DNA from: Escherichia coli
GTDB taxonomy: Bacteria; Pseudomonadota; Gammaproteobacteria; Enterobacterales; Enterobacteriaceae
Direction: 5' to 3' (one strand)
DNA length: 64,000 bases
Assembly: GCF_050920415.1 (NCBI RefSeq)
Contig: NZ_CP169309.1
Shown here in pieces: positions 37,211 to 55,386 of this stretch. The first letter of the stretch is position 1. The number at the start of each line of letters is the position of its first letter. The translations under genes and the position numbers were made by a program. The notes beneath the pieces were generated by a model, which made no database searches, was not told where the DNA came from, and saw only the letters and a list, made by a program, of their open reading frames with translations.

Positions 37211-37519
37211 TCAAGCGGCAATAGCAAAACTCAGAATCCGTTTAATCTCATTCAAATGTCCCGGATATGCTTCATGATTCTCAGCGTCAACATCTTCAAT
37301 AAATAATATCAGTTCAGTAATTAACGCATTGGCATCTTCATAACTGATTCCGCTTAACTCTGGCGAAGTTTCAGTACCGTAGTTAATCGTCAGATTGTTC
37401 ATCACCGTGAGGATAAGGATAAAATATTTATGACAAACCTTGCAAGTGGTTTTGTTGCCCAGAGTATTATACAGCATATCAAGTAATGCCAGTATTCTAC
37501 GGTTTTGTACATCGTTCAT
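37211..37519 (-). CDS. hypothetical 102-aa protein, second gene of an AT-rich two-gene module; function unknown
   Basis: Uninterrupted ORF in ~35% GC DNA; strong SD (taGGAGGggc) 7 nt upstream of ATG; starts 12 nt after the upstream lipoprotein stop; single CxxC (CKVCH), acidic C-terminal half. Confidence 0.6.
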   Translation of the reverse strand: MNDVQNRRILALLDMLYNTLGNKTTCKVCHKYFILILTVMNNLTINYGTETSPELSGISYEDANALITELILFIEDVDAENHEAYPGHLNEIKRILSFAIAA

Positions 37520-37531
37520 AAAAAGCCCCTC

Positions 37532-38533
37532 CTATAACATTATTCCGCTGGCAATAAGTAATTTCGCCAGCCCCTCAGACGCCTTTAACCCACTAATGAC
37601 CTGTGCGCGTAATATTTCATTTAATCTGTTTTGTTCAGCTGCCGTGCGTGTTTTATTAGTGTATAAACCTTTTAGATAATCACCCTTATCTATAAAGGCA
37701 TTTAAAGCTTCAATCGCGGGCATTGCAGCAGCCGATGCCTGTAGTCTGGTTTCATTCACATTGATTACTGAACTTAGAAACTCCTTCCTGTTTTTCAGAG
37801 TGTTAAACTCTGTATTCTTAGAGTTTTTAGATACCGCATTATAATAAAGCATATTATTATGTACATTCGCAAAGGTATAATTTTCAATCTTATCGCCTTT
37901 TGTATAAATATCATTACGCAAAACAGTCATGTTTTTTATAAGTCTTACCCAATTTTTATCCGCCGTTTTACCTATTTTCCCAGCATTGACCTTTATTATA
38001 TATAACTCGTTGAAATAACTTACTAAATCTTTAACTGCCGCTGCCGATTCAGCTAAATCTTTGCTATGTGAAACATCAAGTAGTGTTTGCGCGTTGTTTG
38101 CGTGATCCAGAGCCTGTTTAAGTAATGTCACTTGCTGACTTTCTGTAGTTTTTATGTCTTCAGTCAAGAGCTCTACATAAGCACTCATGCTATTAATGAC
38201 TTCCATTGAAGCCAGTAGTTTCTCTTTTTCGAATGGGACTAATTGTACTTTATCTGTTTTTTCTTCAGGGGGCCTGCATAATTTTCCACCCTGACCATCG
38301 TTCGCAACATCAATGGTATAATCAGGTCGCAATGCACAATCCGGATTAGTCGCATAAAAATTAACAAGGAAGTTTTCACGAGAAGCATAGTATTGTTTAA
38401 AGAAACTTGCATTCGCCGCAACCGCCTTGTTACCCGCAGTAATAACAGTTTCAGCTTGCTCATTTTTCAATGCTTCAGTTGCACAACCTGAAAGCATTAA
38501 CAGCGATAGAAATAATCCACTATATCTAATCAT
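37532..38533 (-). CDS. hypothetical 333-aa lipoprotein (predicted outer-membrane-targeted), first gene of the AT-rich module
   Basis: N-terminus MIRYSGLFLSLLMLSGC-ATEA (signal peptide plus lipobox LSGC, Ala at +2); SD agaGGTGG upstream; 1 kb ORF in AT-rich DNA where stop codons are frequent. Confidence 0.7.
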   Translation of the reverse strand: MIRYSGLFLSLLMLSGCATEALKNEQAETVITAGNKAVAANASFFKQYYASRENFLVNFYATNPDCALRPDYTIDVANDGQGGKLCRPPEEKTDKVQLVPFEKEKLLASMEVINSMSAYVELLTEDIKTTESQQVTLLKQALDHANNAQTLLDVSHSKDLAESAAAVKDLVSYFNELYIIKVNAGKIGKTADKNWVRLIKNMTVLRNDIYTKGDKIENYTFANVHNNMLYYNAVSKNSKNTEFNTLKNRKEFLSSVINVNETRLQASAAAMPAIEALNAFIDKGDYLKGLYTNKTRTAAEQNRLNEILRAQVISGLKASEGLAKLLIASGIML

Positions 38534-39578: not shown

Positions 39579-39678
39579 AGAGCTTCCTTTTGGTGTCGCC
39601 TTCCCAGGCGTCGAACAGGAGAATCAATGGCGCAGTAGAGCGCCATTTTAAGGCCGCGTAGTATACAGAGTTAATCAC

Positions 39679-40299
39679 TTATAAAAAAGGCTTCACATCA
39701 CCTACACCTTCACGCAATACGACTGGCGTATCATCGGTGAGATCAATAACCGTTGTCGGTTTCTGCCCGAGATAGCCGCCGTGAATAATCAAATCCACCT
39801 GTTTTTCCAGACGGTCTTTAATTTCTTCCGGGTCAGACTCGGTAAATTCGCTGCCAGGTAGCATCAGTGATGTGGAAAGCATCGGTTCGCCCAATGCTTC
39901 AAGCAACGCCTGCGCAATCGGGTTAGAAGGCACACGCATACCGATGGTTTTGCGTTTTTCCTGCAACAGACGGCGTGGCACTTCCTTCGTCCCCTTCAGG
40001 ATGAAAGTGTAGTTACCCGGCGTATTGTTTTTCATCAAACGAAACGCAACGTTATCGACAAATGAATAGGTCGAGAGTTCAGAAAGATCGCGACACATCA
40101 GGGTAAAGTTGTGACCGTCCGGCAGCTGGCGAATACGACAAATACGCTCCATGGCGTTTTTATCTTCAATTTTACAGCCGAGCGCATAGCCGGAATCAGT
40201 TGGATAAACAATCACCCCGCCTTTACGCACGATCTCCACCGCCTGGTTGATCAGACGTTGCTGCGGGTTATCAGGATGAATATAAAAAAACTGGCTCAT
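39679..40299 (-). CDS. yciO: YrdC/Sua5-family dsRNA-binding protein
   Basis: ORF trimmed to MSQFFYIHPDNPQQRLINQAVEIVRKGGVIVYPTDSGYALGC..., 206 aa. Confidence 0.88.
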   Translation of the reverse strand: MSQFFYIHPDNPQQRLINQAVEIVRKGGVIVYPTDSGYALGCKIEDKNAMERICRIRQLPDGHNFTLMCRDLSELSTYSFVDNVAFRLMKNNTPGNYTFILKGTKEVPRRLLQEKRKTIGMRVPSNPIAQALLEALGEPMLSTSLMLPGSEFTESDPEEIKDRLEKQVDLIIHGGYLGQKPTTVIDLTDDTPVVLREGVGDVKPFL

Positions 40300-41177
40300 A
40301 ATTCCCTCTCTGTGGTGTTCTGCGGCTGTTCCCATAGCTGCCAGACGCCTTCAACGCCTGCGGGCAGCCAGAGTTTACGACCCAGTTCGATCCACGGGCA
40401 TGGCTGATGAAAATCAGATCCTTGTGATGCCCATAAATGGTGCTGGCGGGCAAGCGTCGCCAGTTGGGTGCGTTCATTGGGCGATTGCTGGCACTGCGCG
40501 ACTTCCATCGCGTCGCCGTGGTGTTCGGCAAAATGCGCAACCAATCTTTTCAGCCATTTAGCACTAAGATTGTACCGCCCAGGATGAGCAAGCACTGCCT
40601 TACCGCCAGAATGATGAATGACATCAATAGCTTGTTCTATTGTACACCACTGTGGCGGAACGTATCCGGTTTTCCCGCGTGCCAGATATTTTTTAAAGAC
40701 ATCCGCTATTGAACTGGCTTTGCCACATTCAACCAAGAAACGCGCAAAATGACCGCGCGTCACCGCACCGCCCTGCGCCAGTCGTTGCGCGCCTTCCAGC
40801 GCCCCAGGTATTTGCGCTTTTTCAAGTCTTTCGGCAATTAACTTCGCCCGCTGATTGCGCCGTTCTGTCTGCTGCGCGAGGAACTCACTCATTGCCGAAT
40901 GTGCAATATCAATATTCAGCCCGACAATATGAATTTCATGATTTTCCCAGACGGTGGATATTTCCACGCCAGGAATAAGATTCAGTGCCAGTCCTGAACG
41001 TGAAATTTCTTCTCTTGCTGGCGCGATTGCCGCTGTGGTGTCATGGTCGGTGATCGCCAGGGTGCCGACGCGCATCTCGACTGCACGGTGCACCAATGCT
41101 TCTGGCGTCAGGCAGCCATCGGAAGCTGTGGTATGGCTGTGCAGGTCATAAATCACTGCGTAATTCGTGTCGCTCAA
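40296..41177 (-). CDS. trpH: PHP-domain 5'-3' exoribonuclease / phosphoesterase (TrpH / YciV / RNase AM)
   Basis: PHP motif HSHTTASDG; proposed TTG start (plus-strand caa at 41175-41177) gives 293 aa; an alternative ATG lies upstream. Confidence 0.85.
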   Translation of the reverse strand: MSDTNYAVIYDLHSHTTASDGCLTPEALVHRAVEMRVGTLAITDHDTTAAIAPAREEISRSGLALNLIPGVEISTVWENHEIHIVGLNIDIAHSAMSEFLAQQTERRNQRAKLIAERLEKAQIPGALEGAQRLAQGGAVTRGHFARFLVECGKASSIADVFKKYLARGKTGYVPPQWCTIEQAIDVIHHSGGKAVLAHPGRYNLSAKWLKRLVAHFAEHHGDAMEVAQCQQSPNERTQLATLARQHHLWASQGSDFHQPCPWIELGRKLWLPAGVEGVWQLWEQPQNTTEREL

Positions 41178-41251
41178 GGCGCACTCCCGTTTTGGATAAT
41201 GTTTTTGCGCCGACATCATAACGGTTCTGGCAAATATTCTGAAATGAGCTG

Positions 41252-41290
41252 TTGACAATTAATCACCGGACTAGTTAACTAGTACGCAAG
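41252..41290 (+). promoter_or_regulatory. trp promoter (-35 TTGACA 41252-41257, -10 TTAACT 41275-41280) with overlapping TrpR operator
   Basis: Direct reading: ttgaca-17 bp-ttaact; palindromic actagttaactagt operator core. Confidence 0.85.
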
Positions 41291-41313
41291 TTCACGTAAA
41301 AAGGGTATCGACA

Positions 41314-41358
41314 ATGAAAGCGATTTTCGTACTGAAAGGTTGGTGGCGCACTTCCTGA
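41314..41358 (+). CDS. trpL: trp operon leader peptide
   Basis: [14 protein letters not shown] with tandem Trp codons. Confidence 0.9.
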
Positions 41359-41400
41359 AACGGGCAGTGTATTCACCATGCGTAAAGCAATCAGATACCC

Positions 41401-41428
41401 AGCCCGCCTAATGAGCGGGCTTTTTTTT
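41401..41428 (+). terminator. trp attenuator (3:4 terminator hairpin)
   Basis: agcccgcctaatgagcgggc followed by tttttttt, 22 nt before the trpE ATG. Confidence 0.9.
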
Positions 41429-41449
41429 GAACAAAATTAGAGAATAACA

Positions 41450-43012
41450 ATGCAAACACAAAAACCGACTCTCGAACTGTTAACCTGCGAAGGTGCTTAT
41501 CGCGATAATCCGACCGCGCTTTTTCATCAGTTGTGTGGGGATCGTCCGGCAACGCTGCTGCTTGAATCCGCAGATATCGACAGCAAAGATGATTTAAAAA
41601 GCCTGCTGCTGGTGGACAGTGCGCTGCGCATTACAGCATTAGGTGACACTGTCACTATTCAGGCACTTTCCGGCAATGGCGAAGCTCTGCTGGCATTACT
41701 GGATAACGCCCTGCCTGCGGGTGTGGAAAATGAACAATCACCAAACTGCCGCGTGCTGCGCTTCCCTCCTGTCAGTCCATTGCTGGATGAAGACGCCCGC
41801 TTATGCTCTCTTTCGGTTTTTGACGCTTTTCGCTTATTGCAGAATCTGTTGAATGTACCGAAGGAAGAACGAGAAGCAATGTTCTTCGGCGGCCTGTTCT
41901 CTTATGACCTTGTGGCGGGGTTTGAAGATTTACCGCAATTGTCAGCGGAAAATAACTGCCCTGATTTCTGTTTTTATCTCGCTGAAACGCTGATGGTTAT
42001 CGATCATCAGAAAAAAAGTACCCGTATTCAGGCCAGTCTTTTTGCTCCCAATGAAGAAGAAAAACAACGTCTCACTGCTCGCCTGAACGAACTTCGCCAG
42101 CAACTGACCGAAACCGCGCCGCCGCTGCCGGTAGTTTCCGTGCCGCATATGCATTGTGAATGTAATCAGAGCGATGAAGAGTTCGGTGGCGTAGTGCGTT
42201 CGTTGCAAAAAGCGATTCGCGCCGGAGAAATTTTCCAGGTCGTACCATCTCGCCGTTTCTCACTGCCCTGCCCGTCATCGCTGGCGGCCTATTACGTGCT
42301 GAAAAAGAGTAATCCCAGCCCGTACATGTTTTTTATGCAGGATAATGATTTCACCCTGTTCGGCGCGTCGCCGGAAAGTTCGCTCAAGTATGACGCCTCC
42401 AGCCGCCAGATTGAGATCTACCCGATTGCCGGAACACGCCCACGAGGACGTCGCGCCGATGGTTCACTGGACAGAGACCTGGACAGCCGCATTGAACTGG
42501 AGATGCGTACCGACCATAAAGAGCTTTCTGAACATCTGATGCTGGTGGATCTCGCCCGTAATGACCTTGCGCGCATTTGCACTCCTGGCAGCCGCTACGT
42601 TGCCGACCTGACCAAAGTTGACCGTTACTCTTACGTGATGCATCTCGTCTCCCGCGTTGTCGGTGAGCTGCGCCACGATCTTGACGCCCTGCACGCTTAC
42701 CGCGCCTGTATGAATATGGGCACGTTAAGCGGTGCCCCGAAAGTGCGCGCCATGCAGTTAATTGCCGAAGCGGAAGGTCGTCGACGCGGCAGCTACGGCG
42801 GTGCGGTAGGTTATTTCACCGCACATGGCGATCTCGACACCTGCATTGTCATCCGTTCGGCGCTGGTGGAAAACGGTATCGCCACCGTGCAAGCCGGTGC
42901 TGGCGTAGTCCTTGATTCTGTTCCGCAGTCGGAAGCCGACGAAACCCGTAATAAAGCCCGCGCTGTACTGCGCGCTATCGCCACCGCGCATCATGCACAG
43001 GAGACTTTCTGA
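41450..43012 (+). CDS. trpE: anthranilate synthase component I
   Basis: 520-aa [57 protein letters not shown]... Confidence 0.96.
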
Positions 43013-44607
43013 TGGCTGACATTCTGCTGCTCGATAATATCGACTCTTTTACTTATAACCTGGCAGATCAGTTGCGCAGCAATGGGCATAACGTGGTGAT
43101 TTACCGCAACCATATTCCGGCGCAAACCTTAATTGAACGTCTTGCGACCATGAGCAATCCGGTGCTGATGCTTTCTCCTGGCCCCGGAGTGCCGAGTGAA
43201 GCGGGTTGTATGCCGGAACTCCTCACCCGTTTGCGTGGCAAGCTGCCAATTATTGGCATTTGCCTCGGACATCAGGCGATTGTCGAAGCTTACGGGGGCT
43301 ATGTCGGTCAGGCGGGAGAAATTCTTCACGGTAAAGCGTCGAGCATTGAACATGACGGTCAGGCGATGTTTGCCGGATTAACAAACCCATTGCCGGTAGC
43401 GCGTTATCACTCGTTGGTTGGCAGTAACATTCCGGCAGGTTTAACCATCAATGCCCATTTTAACGGCATGGTGATGGCGGTGCGTCATGATGCGGATCGC
43501 GTTTGTGGATTCCAGTTCCATCCGGAATCCATTCTCACCACCCAGGGCGCTCGCCTGCTGGAACAAACGCTGGCCTGGGCGCAACAGAAGCTGGAGCCGA
43601 CCAACACACTGCAACCAATTCTGGAAAAACTGTATCAGGCGCAGACGCTTAGCCAACAAGAAAGCCACCAGCTGTTTTCAGCGGTGGTGCGTGGCGAGCT
43701 GAAACCGGAACAACTGGCGGCTGCATTGGTCAGCATGAAAATTCGCGGCGAGCACCCGAACGAAATCGCCGGGGCAGCAACTGCCCTTCTGGAAAATGCT
43801 GCGCCGTTCCCACGCCCTGATTATCTGTTTGCCGATATCGTCGGCACCGGCGGTGACGGCAGCAACAGTATCAATATTTCTACCGCCAGTGCGTTTGTCG
43901 CCGCGGCCTGTGGGCTGAAAGTGGCGAAACACGGTAACCGCAGCGTCTCCAGTAAATCCGGCTCGTCGGATCTGCTGGCGGCATTCGGTATTAATCTTGA
44001 TATGAACGCCGATAAATCGCGCCAGGCGCTGGATGAGTTAGGCGTCTGTTTCCTCTTTGCGCCGAAATATCACACCGGATTTCGCCATGCGATGCCGGTT
44101 CGCCAGCAACTGAAAACCCGCACCCTGTTCAATGTGCTGGGGCCATTGATTAACCCGGCGCATCCTCCGCTGGCGTTAATTGGTGTTTATAGTCCGGAAC
44201 TGGTGCTGCCGATTGCCGAAACCTTGCGCGTGCTGGGGTATCAACGCGCGGCGGTGGTGCACAGCGGCGGGATGGATGAAGTTTCATTACACGCGCCGAC
44301 AATCGTTGCCGAACTGCATGACGGCGAAATTAAGAGCTATCAGTTGACCGCTGAAGATTTTGGCCTGACTCCCTACCATCAGGAGCAACTGGCAGGCGGA
44401 ACACCGGAAGAAAACCGTGACATTTTAACACGCTTGTTACAAGGTAAAGGCGACGCCGCCCATGAAGCAGCTGTCGCGGCGAATGTCGCCATGTTAATGC
44501 GCCTGCATGGCCAGGAAGATCTGCAAACCAATGCGCAAACCGTTCTTGAGGTACTGCGCAGTGGTTCCGCTTACGACAGAGTCACCGCACTGGCGGCACG
44601 AGGGTAA
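43012..44607 (+). CDS. trpD: bifunctional anthranilate synthase component II / anthranilate phosphoribosyltransferase
   Basis: 531 aa; start overlaps the trpE stop (tgATGg). Confidence 0.96.
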
Positions 44608-45969
44608 ATGATGCAAACCGTTTTAGCGAAAATCGTCGCAGACAAGGCGATTTGGGTAGAAGCCCGCAAACAGCAGCAACCGCTGGCCAGTTTTCAGAAT
44701 GAGGTTCAGCCGAGCACGCGACATTTTTATGATGCACTGCAAGGCGCACGCACGGCGTTTATTCTGGAATGCAAAAAAGCGTCGCCGTCAAAAGGCGTGA
44801 TCCGTGATGATTTCGATCCGGCACGCATTGCCGCCATTTATAAACATTACGCTTCGGCAATTTCGGTGCTGACTGATGAGAAATATTTTCAGGGGAGCTT
44901 TGATTTCCTCCCCATCGTCAGCCAAATCGCCCCGCAGCCGATTTTGTGTAAAGACTTTATTATCGACCCTTACCAGATCTATCTGGCGCGCTATTACCAG
45001 GCCGATGCCTGTTTATTAATGCTGTCGGTGCTGGACGACGATCAGTATCGCCAGCTCGCTGCTGTAGCCCACAGTCTGGAGATGGGCGTGCTGACCGAAG
45101 TCAGTAATGAAGAGGAGCTGGAGCGCGCCATTGCATTGGGAGCAAAAGTCGTTGGTATCAACAACCGTGATCTGCGTGATTTGTCGATTGATCTTAACCG
45201 TACCCGCGAGCTTGCGCCGAAACTGGGGCACAACGTGACGGTGATCAGCGAATCCGGCATTAATACTTACGGCCAGGTGCGTGAGTTAAGCCACTTCGCT
45301 AACGGCTTTTTAATTGGTTCGGCGTTGATGGCCCATGACGATTTGAACGCCGCCGTGCGCCGGGTGTTGCTGGGTGAGAATAAAGTATGTGGTCTGACGC
45401 GTGGGGAAGATGCTAAAGCAGCCTATGACGCGGGTGCGATTTACGGTGGATTGATATTTGTTACAACGTCACCGCGTTGCGTCAGCATTGAAGAGGCGCA
45501 GGAAGTGATGGCTGCGGCACCGTTGCAATACGTTGGCGTGTTCCGCAATCACGATATTGCCGATGTGGTGGACAAAGCTAAGGTGTTATCGCTGGCGGCA
45601 GTGCAACTGCATGGTAATGAAGATCAGCTGTATATCGATACGCTGCGTGAGGCTCTGCCAGCAAACGTCGCCATCTGGAAGGCTTTAAGTGTCGGTGAAA
45701 CTCTTCCCGCGCGCGATTTTCAGCACATCGATAAATATGTATTCGACAATGGTCAGGGCGGGAGCGGACAACGTTTCGACTGGTCACTGTTAAACGGTCA
45801 ATCTCTTGGCAACGTTCTGCTGGCGGGTGGCTTAGGCGCAGATAACTGCGTGGAAGCGGCACAAACCGGCTGCGCCGGGCTTGATTTTAATTCTGCTGTA
45901 GAGTCGCAACCGGGCATCAAAGACGCACGTCTTTTGGCCTCGGTTTTCCAGACGCTGCGCGCATATTAA
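44608..45969 (+). CDS. trpC: bifunctional indole-3-glycerol-phosphate synthase / phosphoribosylanthranilate isomerase
   Basis: 453-aa ORF immediately after the trpD stop. Confidence 0.95.
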
Positions 45970-45980
45970 GGAAAGGAACA

Positions 45981-47174
45981 ATGACAACATTACTTAACCC
46001 GTATTTTGGTGAGTTTGGCGGCATGTACGTGCCACAAATCCTGATGCCTGCTCTGCGCCAGCTGGAAGAAGCTTTTGTCAGCGCGCAAAAAGATCCTGAA
46101 TTTCAGGCCCAGTTCAACGACCTGCTGAAAAACTATGCCGGGCGCCCAACCGCGCTGACCAAATGTCAGAACATTACAGCCGGGACGAACACCACACTGT
46201 ATCTGAAGCGTGAAGATTTACTGCACGGCGGCGCGCATAAAACTAACCAGGTTCTGGGCCAGGCTTTGCTGGCGAAGCGGATGGGTAAAACCGAAATCAT
46301 TGCCGAAACCGGTGCAGGTCAGCATGGCGTGGCTTCTGCGCTTGCAAGCGCCCTGCTCGGCCTGAAATGCCGTATTTATATGGGTGCCAAAGACGTTGAA
46401 CGCCAGTCGCCTAACGTTTTTCGTATGCGTTTGATGGGTGCGGAAGTGATCCCGGTGCATAGCGGTTCCGCGACGCTGAAAGATGCCTGTAATGAGGCGC
46501 TACGCGACTGGTCCGGCAGTTATGAAACCGCGCACTATATGCTGGGCACTGCAGCTGGCCCGCATCCTTACCCGACCATTGTGCGTGAGTTTCAGCGGAT
46601 GATTGGCGAAGAAACGAAAGCGCAGATTCTGGAAAGAGAAGGTCGTCTGCCGGATGCCGTTATTGCTTGTGTTGGCGGCGGTTCGAATGCCATCGGCATG
46701 TTTGCTGATTTCATCAACGAAACCGACGTCGGGCTGATCGGCGTGGAGCCTGGTGGTCACGGTATCGAAACTGGCGAGCACGGCGCACCGTTAAAACATG
46801 GTCGCGTGGGCATCTATTTCGGTATGAAAGCGCCAATGATGCAAACCGAAGACGGGCAGATTGAAGAATCTTACTCGATTTCTGCCGGACTGGATTTCCC
46901 GTCAGTCGGCCCGCAACACGCTTATCTCAACAGCATTGGACGCGCTGATTATGTGTCAATCACCGATGATGAAGCTCTGGAGGCCTTCAAAACGCTGTGC
47001 CTGCACGAAGGGATTATCCCGGCGCTGGAATCCTCACATGCGCTGGCCCATGCGCTGAAAATGATGCGCGAAAACCCGGAAAAAGAGCAGCTACTGGTGG
47101 TTAACCTTTCCGGTCGCGGCGATAAAGACATCTTCACCGTTCACGATATTTTGAAAGCACGAGGGGAAATCTGA
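45981..47174 (+). CDS. trpB: tryptophan synthase beta chain
   Basis: 397-aa [28 protein letters not shown]... Confidence 0.96.
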
Positions 47175-53535: not shown

Positions 53536-53832
53536 GTGTTGTATGTTATTTACGCTCAAGACAAAGCTGATAGCCTCGAAAAACGCCTTTCCGTTCGTCC
53601 GGCACATTTAGCACGTTTACAGTTACTGCATGATGAAGGTCGATTGTTGACCGCCGGTCCAATGCCAGCAGTAGACAGTAACGATCCAGGGGCTGCGGGA
53701 TTTACTGGCTCAACCGTTATTGCTGAATTTGAATCGCTGGAAGCAGCTCAGGCCTGGGCCGATGCTGACCCGTACGTGGCGGCAGGAGTCTATGAACACG
53801 TTTCAGTGAAACCATTTAAGAAAGTGTTCTGA
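53536..53832 (+). CDS. yciI: YciI-like protein (98 aa), GTG start
   Basis: SD caaGGAGtt then GTG at 53536; product (M)[27 protein letters not shown]... Confidence 0.8.
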
Positions 53833-54132: not shown

Positions 54133-55386
54133 GTGAGTCACTGGACTACATTCAAACAAACAGCAACAAATTTATGGGTGACCCTACGGCACGACATTCT
54201 CGCGCTGGCCGTCTTTTTAAATGGATTGCTTATTTTTAAAACAATCTATGGTATGTCGGTCAATTTGCTTGATATTTTCCATATCAAAGCCTTTTCAGAG
54301 TTAGATCTCTCCTTGCTGGCAAATGCCCCACTCTTTATGCTCGGCGTCTTTCTTGTCCTGAACTCCATTGGCTTACTGTTCCGGGCAAAGCTCGCATGGG
54401 CAATCAGTATCATTTTGTTGTTGATAGCGCTAATTTACACCCTGCATTTTTATCCCTGGCTGAAATTTAGTATTGGATTTTGCATTTTTACGCTGGTGTT
54501 TTTGCTGATACTGCGCAAAGACTTCTCCCACAGTAGCGCCGCAGCCGGGACAATTTTCGCATTTATTAGTTTCACGACGTTACTGTTTTACTCCACCTAC
54601 GGTGCGCTTTATTTAAGCGAAGGTTTTAATCCGCGAATAGAAAGTTTGATGACCGCGTTCTATTTTTCGATAGAAACCATGTCAACCGTCGGCTATGGCG
54701 ATATTGTCCCTGTTTCTGAATCAGCACGATTGTTCACTATTTCGGTCATTATTTCCGGCATTACCGTTTTTGCCACCTCCATGACTTCAATTTTTGGTCC
54801 GCTTATCCGCGGGGGATTCAACAAACTTGTAAAAGGAAAAAATCATACAATGCATCGTAAAGATCATTTTATTGTTTGCGGGCATTCGATTCTCGCCATC
54901 AATACGATTCTGCAACTGAATCAACGCGGACAAAATGTAACGGTTATCAGCAACTTGCCTGAAGATGATATCAAGCAACTTGAGCAACGCTTAGGTGATA
55001 ACGCTGATGTTATCCCCGGTGACAGTAATGACAGTTCAGTATTAAAGAAAGCAGGAATCGATCGATGCCGGGCCATTCTGGCGCTGAGTGATAACGATGC
55101 TGATAACGCGTTTGTTGTACTATCGGCAAAAGATATGAGCAGTGATGTCAAAACAGTTCTCGCCGTCAGTGATAGCAAAAACCTGAATAAGATTAAGATG
55201 GTACATCCGGATATCATTCTCTCGCCGCAACTGTTTGGCAGCGAAATTCTGGCACGAGTTTTAAATGGTGAAGAGATTAATAATGATATGCTCGTTTCAA
55301 TGTTGTTGAACTCCGGTCATGGTATTTTCAGCGATAACGATGAACAAGAAACGAAAACTGACAGCAAAGAATCGGCGCAAAAATAG
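54133..55386 (+). CDS. kch: voltage-gated potassium channel Kch
   Basis: K+ selectivity filter TVGYGD; RCK/TrkA-N domain; GTG start proposed (417 aa). Confidence 0.9.
   Translation: MSHWTTFKQTATNLWVTLRHDILALAVFLNGLLIFKTIYGMSVNLLDIFHIKAFSELDLSLLANAPLFMLGVFLVLNSIGLLFRAKLAWAISIILLLIALIYTLHFYPWLKFSIGFCIFTLVFLLILRKDFSHSSAAAGTIFAFISFTTLLFYSTYGALYLSEGFNPRIESLMTAFYFSIETMSTVGYGDIVPVSESARLFTISVIISGITVFATSMTSIFGPLIRGGFNKLVKGKNHTMHRKDHFIVCGHSILAINTILQLNQRGQNVTVISNLPEDDIKQLEQRLGDNADVIPGDSNDSSVLKKAGIDRCRAILALSDNDADNAFVVLSAKDMSSDVKTVLAVSDSKNLNKIKMVHPDIILSPQLFGSEILARVLNGEEINNDMLVSMLLNSGHGIFSDNDEQETKTDSKESAQK

What the first reader, a model, noticed from the sequence alone, without database searches (positions are those of the whole stretch)
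40296..41177. trpH (yciV / RNase AM) appears to use a TTG start and abuts yciO
Seen in sequence: the conserved N-terminus (M)SDTNYAVIYDLHSHTTASDG has no in-frame ATG directly in front of it; the codon there is TTG (plus-strand caa at 41175-41177). The nearest upstream ATGs would add 13-27 residues. The trpH stop (40296-40298) is directly adjacent to the yciO start (40299), suggesting translational coupling. yciI (GTG at 53536) and kch (GTG at 54133) also seem to use non-ATG starts.
Basis: partly seen in the sequence, partly recalled or inferred. Interest (0 to 1): 0.15.

Follow-up and report, generated by a model that had tools for sequence, protein, structure and literature searches.

The report
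RNase AM gene's conserved TTG start
The E. coli ribonuclease gene trpH (also called yciV or rnm, encoding RNase AM) does start at a TTG codon, as reference annotations already say; the upstream ATGs that looked like alternatives sit in the gene's likely promoter, so the finding is correct but ordinary.

Summary
On the minus strand, the trpH/yciV/rnm CDS runs from TTG 41177-41175 to TGA 40298-40296. Both NCBI's PGAP annotation pipeline (on a record identical to the window) and the K-12 reference (b1266) annotate exactly this 293-aa CDS. The yciO ATG (40299-40297) overlaps the trpH stop as ATGA, so the two genes overlap by 4 nt rather than merely abutting.

Comparative evidence is strong:
- TTG is invariant at the homologous site in 81/81 Enterobacteriaceae loci. 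The 20 other conserved Leu columns each use 3-6 different codons.
- A GGAG Shine-Dalgarno sequence lies 6 nt upstream.
- Third-position wobble begins right after TTG-AGC.
- Many species have an in-frame stop 5-8 codons upstream with no start codon in between.

The upstream ATGs (41219-41214) lie in or on a conserved -10-like hexamer, TAT(G/C/T)AT. They are in frame here only because of a rare 1-nt shorter A-tract (A5 instead of A6). That allele is found in about 0.4% of complete E. coli genomes and matches an E. fergusonii-named allele. In K-12 the ATGs are out of frame behind a TGA.

Published cell-free initiation profiling (INRI-seq) shows a peak at the K-12 TTG. The yciI and kch GTG starts are also the annotated ones.

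By-product: an unexplained 48-nt stretch inside trpH that is conserved at synonymous sites.

The parts
40296..41177 (-). trpH / yciV / rnm CDS (RNase AM, a PHP-domain 5'-3' exoribonuclease), 293 aa, running from the TTG start to the TGA stop
   Evidence: PGAP CDS rnm WP_001353241.1 at these coordinates. NCBIfam RNaseRnm equivalog NF047791.1 scores 502.8 bits against a cutoff of 375, and Pfam PHP also matches.
41175..41177 (-). TTG initiation codon of trpH
   Evidence: Invariant TTG in 81/81 Enterobacteriaceae loci. It is the annotated start in K-12. INRI-seq shows a peak at the K-12 equivalent, 1323220, in 5/5 replicates.
41184..41188 (-). Shine-Dalgarno GGGAG, 6 nt upstream of the TTG
   Evidence: Anti-SD duplex energy is -6.9 kcal/mol, against +0.2 for either upstream ATG. 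A conserved GGA core lies at -10..-7 across 80 loci.
41214..41219 (-). ATGATG: the two upstream in-frame ATGs (+14 and +13 codons). These are the rival start candidates and are judged not to be used.
   Evidence: Neither has a Shine-Dalgarno sequence. The first lies inside the conserved -10-like hexamer and the second overlaps its last two bases. They are out of frame in K-12 and in 5184/5423 E. coli records.
41215..41220 (-). Predicted -10 hexamer TATGAT of the trpH (yciVOQ) promoter
   Evidence: The consensus scan finds TTCAGA-17-TATGAT. TAT(G/C/T)AT is present at a fixed offset from the trp -35 in 81/81 loci (TATGAT 55, TATCAT 20, TATTAT 5, TACTAT 1). No TSS data were found, so the promoter assignment is an inference.
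41238..41243 (-). Predicted -35 hexamer TTCAGA of the trpH promoter, back-to-back with the trp operon -35 (TTGACA, + strand 41252-41257)
   Evidence: TTCAGA 46, TTCAGT 20, TTTAGA 7 of 81.
41202..41206 (-). A5 tract in the predicted 5' UTR. It is 1 nt shorter than the A6 (or AATAAA) of K-12 and other Escherichia, and this is what puts the upstream ATGs in frame in this window.
   Evidence: alignment; allele counts; identical allele in contigs carrying the E. fergusonii-named protein P0005.
40296..40299 (-). ATGA overlap: the yciO start ATG (40299-40297) overlaps the trpH stop TGA (40298-40296)
   Evidence: The overlap is conserved in 69/81 loci; the other 12 have gaps of 10-26 nt or an undetected yciO start.
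40304..40308 (-). yciO Shine-Dalgarno GAGGG inside the 3' end of trpH, 4 nt upstream of the yciO ATG
   Evidence: Anti-SD duplex energy is -7.0 kcal/mol. The conserved gagagggaa motif is seen.
39679..40299 (-). yciO CDS (Sua5/YciO/YrdC family), 206 aa
   Evidence: PGAP annotation. Pfam PF01300 matches at 5.8e-52. In K-12 the annotated start shows both an INRI-seq peak and an in vivo Ribo-RET peak.
53536..53538 (+). GTG start of yciI (secondary claim)
   Evidence: PGAP CDS 53536..53832. The sequence aAGGAGttgtgcccGTG is seen. The K-12 annotated start gives an INRI-seq peak.
54133..54135 (+). GTG start of kch (secondary claim)
   Evidence: PGAP CDS 54133..55386. The sequence aGAGGtatcaGTG is seen. 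The K-12 annotated start gives a strong INRI-seq peak.

Best explanation
trpH (yciV/rnm, RNase AM) is translated from the TTG at 41177-41175. Initiation is directed by a GGGAG Shine-Dalgarno sequence 6 nt upstream and yields the 293-aa protein MSDTNYAVIYDLHSHT.... The mRNA most likely starts about 30 nt upstream of the TTG, around 41208. It would come from a weak sigma-70-type promoter (TTCAGA-17-TATGAT) that lies back-to-back with the trp operon promoter. If so, the upstream ATGATG is promoter DNA (the -10 hexamer plus 1 nt) and is not in the transcript.

In this window the ATGs are in frame only because of a 1-nt shorter A-tract in the 5' UTR, a rare allele matching one named E. fergusonii. 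The TTG has been kept unchanged across Enterobacteriaceae. I infer that a weak start codon is selected to keep this 5'-3' exoribonuclease at a low level.

The downstream gene yciO starts at an ATG that overlaps the trpH stop (ATGA) and has its own Shine-Dalgarno sequence inside trpH. It can therefore be translated both by termination-reinitiation and by independent initiation.

Shown: the annotation, the sequence features, the conservation, and in vitro initiation at the K-12 TTG. Inferred: the promoter and TSS, the selective reason for keeping TTG, and functional coupling.
For: - **Annotation.** PGAP places rnm at 40296..41177 on the identical record. K-12 b1266 is 1323220..1324101, beginning at TTG.
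- **K-12 reading frame.** In K-12 the in-frame codon 14 upstream of the TTG is TGA, with no start codon between them. The K-12-type 67-nt start region is identical in 5184/5423 E. coli records.
- **Cross-species conservation.** TTG is present in 81/81 Enterobacteriaceae loci and is never ATG, GTG or CTG. The 20 other conserved Leu columns each use 3-6 codons. In-frame stops lie 5-8 codons upstream, with no start between, in many genera.
- **Coding signature.** Per-site entropy shows period-3 wobble starting at codon 3, and no periodicity upstream except the Shine-Dalgarno sequence. Codon 7 (Ala) has 39 synonymous and 0 non-synonymous changes. 'Codons' -10..-1 have 57 synonymous and 506 non-synonymous changes and include stop codons.
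- **Shine-Dalgarno pairing.** Duplex energies are -6.9 kcal/mol for the TTG, +0.2 for the ATGs and -1.9 for the codon-8 GTG.
- **Promoter.** A -10-like TAT(G/C/T)AT hexamer is present in 81/81 loci. Its distance to the TTG varies from 35 to 40 nt in 78 of the 81 loci (51 and 105 nt in the other three). Of 105 ATGs overlapping it, 87 are out of frame.
- **Experimental data.** INRI-seq Table S2 (PMC9825163) reports a peak at 1323220 in 5/5 replicates.
- **yciO junction.** The ATGA overlap occurs in 69/81 loci.
Against: - No in vivo evidence for the TTG was found. The Ribo-RET value quoted in the INRI-seq table for yciV is 0/FALSE, and the gene is absent from the one N-terminomics supplement searched.
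- The INRI-seq template starts 30 nt upstream of the TTG, so it could not test the upstream ATGs. It also reported out-of-frame peaks near the start (GTG at -7, ATG at +16).
- No TSS data could be retrieved, so the promoter is only a consensus match plus conservation.
- The family profile and distant homologues begin around residue 8-9 of the E. coli protein, which on its own would fit a start at the codon-8 GTG.
- In 17 of 80 loci (not this window) an in-frame ATG lies 4 codons upstream of the TTG and overlaps the Shine-Dalgarno sequence.
Confidence: 0.92

Rival explanations
1. In this A5-allele lineage the upstream ATG (41219 or 41216) is used, giving a 307- or 306-aa protein beginning MMSAQKHYPKRECAL. 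Some automated gene callers predict this.
For: The ATGs are in frame with no intervening stop in the window. 307-aa gene models exist in public collections (P0028, P0029, P0041, P0096).
Against: - There is no Shine-Dalgarno pairing (+0.2 kcal/mol).
- The first ATG lies within, and the second overlaps, the conserved -10-like hexamer, whose 4th position varies G/C/T between species.
- The extension is out of frame or stop-interrupted in K-12, in about 96% of E. coli genomes and in most genera.
- The extension adds nothing to the family score (502.6 vs 502.8 bits).
- 'Codons' upstream of the TTG show no coding signature.
- PGAP calls the TTG on this very allele.
Confidence: 0.03
2. The real start is the GTG at codon 8 (41156-41154), giving MIYDLHSHT.... 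This matches the N-terminus typical of distant PHP-family homologues, and TTG..GCA would then be untranslated leader.
For: The NCBIfam RNaseRnm profile aligns from residue 9. Distant homologues at 48-54% identity start with ATG plus 1-3 residues before DLHxH.
Against: - Codon 8 is not a conserved start: GTG 51, ATT 18, GTA 4, ATA 3, GTC 1, CTG 1 of 80.
- Codons 3-7 show amino-acid-level purifying selection with synonymous wobble; Ala7 has 39 synonymous and 0 non-synonymous changes.
- Shine-Dalgarno pairing is poor and mis-spaced (-1.9 kcal/mol, 15 nt).
- The INRI-seq peak was assigned to the annotated TTG.
Confidence: 0.03
3. TTG is the start, but it is invariant because the TTGAGCGA sequence has a second role at the DNA or RNA level (a protein or RNA binding site, or a structure), not because a weak start codon is selected.
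For: Conservation extends beyond the start codon. Codon 2 is AGC in 78/80 loci, with no synonymous change among six possible Ser codons, and positions +7 and +8 are also invariant.
Against: No motif or structure was identified. MFE folds of the putative leader show no strong structure involving the Shine-Dalgarno sequence or the TTG. Constraint on the second codon and the +4 A is a general feature of bacterial initiation regions (own knowledge; compare PMC5850271, listed).
Confidence: 0.15

Closest known systems
E. coli K-12 b1266 (yciV/trpH/rnm, RNase AM; NP_415782.1, 293 aa)
   Same: It is the same gene with the same TTG start, the same Shine-Dalgarno sequence, the same ATGA overlap with yciO, and the same divergent position next to the trp promoter. 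Its function as a 5'-3' exoribonuclease that matures the 5' ends of 5S, 16S and 23S rRNA has been shown experimentally (PMC7261194).
   Different: The window carries a divergent allele (about 96.5% DNA identity) with a 1-nt shorter A-tract in the leader, which accidentally puts the promoter ATGs in frame. The window's operon also lacks yciQ downstream of yciO.
Other non-ATG-initiated E. coli genes (GTG or TTG starts, e.g. yciI and kch in this window); infC with its AUU start is the classic regulated case
   Same: They use a near-cognate start codon with a normal Shine-Dalgarno sequence. By general knowledge, a few percent of E. coli genes use TTG.
   Different: Unlike infC, there is no evidence that the trpH start codon is a regulatory sensor. 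UUG is accepted by IF3 as a canonical start (own knowledge). What stands out here is only the strict conservation, 81/81.
Translationally coupled overlapping gene pairs, e.g. trpE-trpD and trpB-trpA (the classic coupling examples, both present in this window)
   Same: The stop and start codons overlap in co-directional operon genes. trpE/trpD share base 43012 and trpB/trpA share base 47174; trpH/yciO share ATGA.
   Different: Coupling of trpH and yciO has not been tested. yciO has its own strong Shine-Dalgarno sequence and shows an in vivo Ribo-RET peak where trpH shows none. In 12/81 species the genes are separated by 10-26 nt or the yciO start was not detected.

Membership tests
RNase AM / Rnm (PHP-domain 5'-3' exoribonuclease, NCBIfam NF047791 equivalog) | Whole-protein score above the curated equivalog cutoff | tested here: met
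   502.8 bits against a cutoff of 375; profile positions 2-275 of 275 align to residues 9-282.
RNase AM / Rnm (PHP-domain 5'-3' exoribonuclease, NCBIfam NF047791 equivalog) | PHP domain with the N-terminal HxH metal-binding motif | tested here: met
   Pfam PF02811 scores 37.3 bits against a cutoff of 26.4. The DLHSHT motif at residues 11-16 is conserved in all 81 loci.
RNase AM / Rnm (PHP-domain 5'-3' exoribonuclease, NCBIfam NF047791 equivalog) | 5'-3' exoribonuclease activity on rRNA precursors | not testable with these tools
   Shown for the K-12 orthologue (98% identical) in PMC7261194. It is inferred by orthology here.
Genes with a genuine TTG initiation codon | TTG preceded by a Shine-Dalgarno sequence at functional spacing, with no better in-frame start available | tested here: met
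   GGGAG lies 6 nt upstream, -6.9 kcal/mol. In K-12 and many genera an in-frame stop lies upstream with no start codon between.
Genes with a genuine TTG initiation codon | Start codon conserved at nucleotide level, with the coding signature beginning immediately after it | tested here: met
   TTG in 81/81 loci. Period-3 wobble begins at codon 3, and no coding signature is seen upstream.
Genes with a genuine TTG initiation codon | Direct evidence of ribosome initiation at the codon | tested here: inconclusive
   An in vitro INRI-seq peak at K-12 1323220 appears in 5/5 replicates, but the in vivo Ribo-RET value is 0 (PMC9825163 Table S2). This is K-12 data, not the window's allele.
Genes with a genuine TTG initiation codon | Protein N-terminus determined (Edman sequencing or N-terminomics) | not tested
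   No entry for the gene in the one N-terminomics supplement searched.
Translationally coupled overlapping gene pair | Stop codon of the upstream gene overlaps or abuts the start codon of the downstream gene | tested here: met
   ATGA at 40299-40296; present in 69/81 loci.
Translationally coupled overlapping gene pair | Downstream translation depends on upstream translation | not testable with these tools
   This needs a premature-stop or start-codon mutant of trpH with a yciO reporter. yciO has its own Shine-Dalgarno sequence (-7.0 kcal/mol) and an in vivo initiation peak where trpH has none, which argues against strict dependence.

The most novel reading that the evidence does not exclude
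The TTG start, and the adjacent invariant AGCGA, is kept unchanged across Enterobacteriaceae (81/81 species-level loci) because a weak, fixed-strength initiation site caps synthesis of RNase AM, a 5'-3' exoribonuclease whose excess would presumably be harmful. More distant homologues use ATG and lack the 8-residue N-terminal extension, so this would be a lineage-specific expression 'governor'. Separately, the 48-nt synonymous-site-conserved block inside trpH (40646-40599, containing CAATAG-N6-CTATTG) could be an undescribed regulatory element embedded in the coding sequence.
Probability: 0.35. Interest if true: 0.35.

Novelty: already known. Interest (0 to 1): 0.1.

Why it matters
It matters little for biology: the TTG start and the overlap with yciO are already in the reference annotations.

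It has practical value for annotation quality. On the rare A5 allele some gene callers extend the gene to a promoter-embedded ATG and produce spurious 307-aa models. The comparative evidence here shows that the 293-aa model is right.

The strict conservation of a weak start codon on an rRNA-maturing exoribonuclease is a modest example of selection on start-codon identity. The conserved block inside the gene is a small open question.

Tried and rejected
- **TSS data for the trpH promoter.** I searched the supplements of the Cappable-seq paper, the ROSE paper and a dRNA-seq paper. The gene and its coordinates do not appear in the files held as text, so the promoter remains an inference.
- **N-terminomics.** The TRAINSPOTTER supplement has no entry for the gene.
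- **Full-text search.** 'yciV' plus 'start codon' returned nothing.
- **Intermediate relatives.** The search for homologous proteins returned only Escherichia in its top 120, so it did not supply Yersinia- or Serratia-level relatives. The representative library gave only homologues at 54% identity or less. The phylogenetic depth of the TTG beyond Enterobacteriaceae is therefore unresolved. Three distant homologues use ATG.
- **Upstream ATG as start.** Rejected; see the rival explanations.
- **Codon-8 GTG as start.** Rejected on codon conservation and the coding signature.
- **Internal conserved block.** I found no sigma-70 consensus promoter, no Rfam family and no consensus RNA structure on either strand. 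An antisense ORF is unlikely because conservation stops after about 14 codons. The 6-bp palindrome it contains is not significant on its own: 15 of 100 shuffles give at least one match at up to 1 mismatch.
- **Coordinate error.** My first Shine-Dalgarno calculation used ATG coordinates that were off by one. It was corrected.
Full report
**What is there**

The window is the E. coli trp region. It is 100% identical to NZ_CP169399.1 (strain MFDS1022581); window position x corresponds to record position x + 2778424.

On the minus strand an ORF encodes the PHP-domain protein TrpH/YciV/Rnm (RNase AM). It scores 502.8 bits against the NCBIfam RNaseRnm equivalog, whose cutoff is 375, and it matches Pfam PHP. 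RNase AM is the 5'-3' exoribonuclease that trims the last three precursor nucleotides from the 5' ends of 5S, 16S and 23S rRNA (PMC7261194).

The sequence in front of the conserved N-terminus reads ...ccaaaacGGGAGtgcgccTTGagcgacacgaat....

**Annotation**

PGAP annotates rnm as 40296..41177 and yciO as 39679..40299 on the identical record. K-12 MG1655 annotates b1266 as 1323220..1324101, and its first codon is the same TTG.

The yciO ATG (40299-40297) and the trpH TGA (40298-40296) overlap as ATGA. The genes overlap by 4 nt rather than being merely adjacent.

**The upstream ATGs**

In the window, ATG codons at 41219-41217 and 41216-41214 are in frame, +14 and +13 codons from the TTG. K-12 has caaaaaac where the window has caaaaac. 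In K-12 the ATGs are therefore out of frame, and the in-frame reading hits TGA (within aTGAtg) 14 codons upstream of the TTG, with no start codon in between.

- The K-12-type 67-nt start region is identical in 5184 of 5423 E. coli records.
- The window-type A5 region is exact in 9 records, and about 13 more differ from it by one substitution at the same length. That is roughly 0.4% of complete genomes.
- Other Escherichia species (E. whittamii, E. albertii) have the longer length, so A5 is the derived state.
- The A5 allele is identical to that on contigs carrying protein P0005, which NCBI names as E. fergusonii.
- On this allele some gene callers produce 307-aa models beginning MMSAQKHYPK... 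(P0028, P0029, P0041, P0096). PGAP still calls the TTG.

**Cross-species evidence for the TTG**

I fetched 80 species-level orthologous loci from Enterobacteriaceae at 77-98% protein identity. Together with the window and K-12, 81 sequences could be analysed.

- The homologous codon is TTG in 81/81. One of these has a 2-codon insertion after TTG-AGC.
- The 20 other columns with conserved Leu each use 3-6 different codons.
- Only 5 of 132 fully conserved degenerate columns have an invariant codon.
- In-frame stops lie 5-8 codons upstream, with no start between, in Citrobacter, Kosakonia, Leclercia, Pluralibacter and others.
- Per-site entropy shows third-position wobble starting at codon 3. Upstream there is no periodicity except a conserved GGA(G) at -10..-7.
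- Relative to the consensus, 'codons' -10..-1 show 57 synonymous and 506 non-synonymous differences and include stop codons. Codons 2-8 show 98 and 75. Codon 7 (Ala) shows 39 and 0.

Codons 2-8 are therefore translated, which excludes the GTG at codon 8. That codon is in any case ATT, ATA, GTA, GTC or CTG in about a third of species. This matters because the family profile and distant homologues (48-54% identity, ATG starts) begin only 1-3 residues before the DLHxH motif. The 8-residue extension and its TTG are thus a feature of the enterobacterial lineage.

**Shine-Dalgarno pairing**

| Candidate start | Anti-SD duplex (kcal/mol) | Spacing |
|---|---|---|
| TTG 41177 | -6.9 | good |
| Upstream ATGs | +0.2 | n/a |
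| Codon-8 GTG | -1.9 | 15 nt |
| yciO ATG | -7.0 | n/a |

**The ATGs are promoter sequence (inference)**

A consensus scan finds TTCAGA-17-TATGAT on the minus strand at 41243-41215. This lies immediately next to the divergent trp promoter -35, TTGACA at + strand 41252-41257.

- All 81 loci carry TAT(G/C/T)AT at this fixed offset (TATGAT 55, TATCAT 20, TATTAT 5, TACTAT 1). The matching -35 hexamers are mainly TTCAGA or TTCAGT (46 and 20 of 81).
- The sequence between this hexamer and the Shine-Dalgarno sequence is unconserved.
- The distance from the hexamer to the TTG varies from 35 to 40 nt in 78 of the 81 loci (51 and 105 nt in the other three), so it is not kept to multiples of 3.
- Of 105 ATGs overlapping the hexamer, 87 are out of frame.

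The 'G' of the first ATG is the one variable position of a -10 hexamer. A TSS about 7 nt downstream, near 41208, would leave both ATGs out of the mRNA. I could not retrieve TSS data, so this step is not shown.

**Experimental data in the literature**

INRI-seq is cell-free, retapamulin-arrested initiation profiling on a synthetic K-12 template pool. Its Table S2 (PMC9825163) lists yciV at 1323220 with peaks in all five replicates (14.2, 10.3, 6.5, 8.5, 15.3), scored 'TRUE'. The in vivo Ribo-RET column (Meydan et al. 2019) is 0/FALSE.

- The template begins 30 nt upstream of the TTG, so it does not test the ATGs. They are out of frame in K-12 anyway.
- yciO shows both in vitro peaks and an in vivo peak of 78.
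- The yciI and kch GTG starts also have in vitro peaks.

**trpH-yciO junction**

The ATGA overlap is present in 69/81 loci. In 11 of the others the gap is 10-26 nt, and in one no yciO start was found. Synteny trpH-yciO(-rluB) also holds in distant homologues.

Because yciO has its own Shine-Dalgarno sequence and a far stronger in vivo initiation signal than trpH, coupling is plausible but probably not obligatory. This was not tested.

**Verdict**

The matter is already known from annotation. New here are three points:
- why the ATGs appear in frame in this window;
- the invariance of the TTG across a bacterial family;
- the likely promoter identity of the ATG sequence.

Interest is low.

**By-products**

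- **Conserved block inside trpH.** Codons 178-193 (40646-40599) have normalised synonymous-codon entropy of about 0.08, against 0.66 for the gene. The rare codon ATA is kept in 80/81 loci, and the block contains the palindrome CAATAG-N6-CTATTG. No promoter consensus, Rfam family or consensus RNA fold explains it.
- **Divergent trp operon.** The trpD-trpC segment of the window is only 90-95% identical to 4170 of 5422 E. coli records, whereas topA is 95-99% identical or better. This suggests an introgressed, E. fergusonii-like trp segment.
- **Gene content.** yciQ is absent downstream of yciO, and two hypothetical genes without Pfam hits lie between rluB and cobO.

Noticed in passing
window 40599-40646 (minus strand; trpH codons 178-193), with the palindrome at 40625-40642: A 48-nt block inside trpH is conserved at synonymous sites across 81 Enterobacteriaceae loci. 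Normalised synonymous entropy is about 0.08 against a gene mean of 0.66. All 5 invariant-codon columns of the gene fall in codons 171-189, and the rare ATA codon is kept in 80/81 loci. The block contains the perfect inverted repeat CAATAG-N6-CTATTG. No sigma-70 consensus, Rfam hit or consensus RNA structure was found, so its function is unexplained.
   Followed up: partly
window 41202-41206 and the whole trp segment, about 40200-46000: The trp operon/trpH segment of this strain is unusually divergent for E. coli. trpD-trpC is 90-95% identical to 4170/5422 records, and only the source record reaches 99% or more. topA, 8 kb away, is 95-99% identical or better. The trpH protein and its leader allele match sequences that NCBI names E. 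fergusonii. This looks like an introgressed segment shared by a handful of strains, e.g. 2020CK-00188, EC42405, R32_14_1F and N96.
   Followed up: partly
window 37211-38533 (minus strand) and the yciO-rluB junction at 39579-39678: Compared with K-12, yciQ (DUF2207) is missing between yciO and rluB. Two hypothetical CDSs (333 aa and 102 aa) with no Pfam match lie between rluB and cobO.
   Followed up: partly
window 41215-41257: A back-to-back divergent promoter arrangement. The predicted trpH promoter (-35 TTCAGA 41243-41238, -10 TATGAT 41220-41215) starts 9 bp from the trp operon -35 (TTGACA, + strand 41252-41257). Both are conserved in all 81 loci, which raises the possibility of shared or competing RNA polymerase or TrpR occupancy.
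   Followed up: partly
public protein collections (P0028, P0029, P0041, P0096); loci L091-L093: 307-aa gene models of RNase AM starting MMSAQKHYPK(R/W)ECAL exist on A5-allele contigs; P0029 is seen on 172 contigs. They are most likely over-extended start calls.
   Followed up: yes
window 41170-41174 (trpH codon 2 and the first two bases of codon 3): Codon 2 is AGC in 78/80 loci, with no synonymous change among six possible Ser codons, and TTGAGCGA is essentially invariant. Nucleotide-level constraint therefore extends a few bases past the start codon.
   Followed up: no
K-12 coordinates 1323212 and 1323235 (equivalent to window about 41185 and 41162): The INRI-seq alternative-site table lists out-of-frame peaks at a GTG 7-8 nt upstream of the yciV TTG and at an ATG 16 nt downstream of it. 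The ATG does not exist in the window allele (TAC instead of TAT-G). These may be resolution artefacts of the same initiation complex.
   Followed up: no
window 43012 and 47174: The classic coupled junctions of the trp operon are present. trpE/trpD and trpB/trpA each share one base between stop and start in the annotation. They make useful internal comparators for the trpH/yciO ATGA overlap.
   Followed up: no
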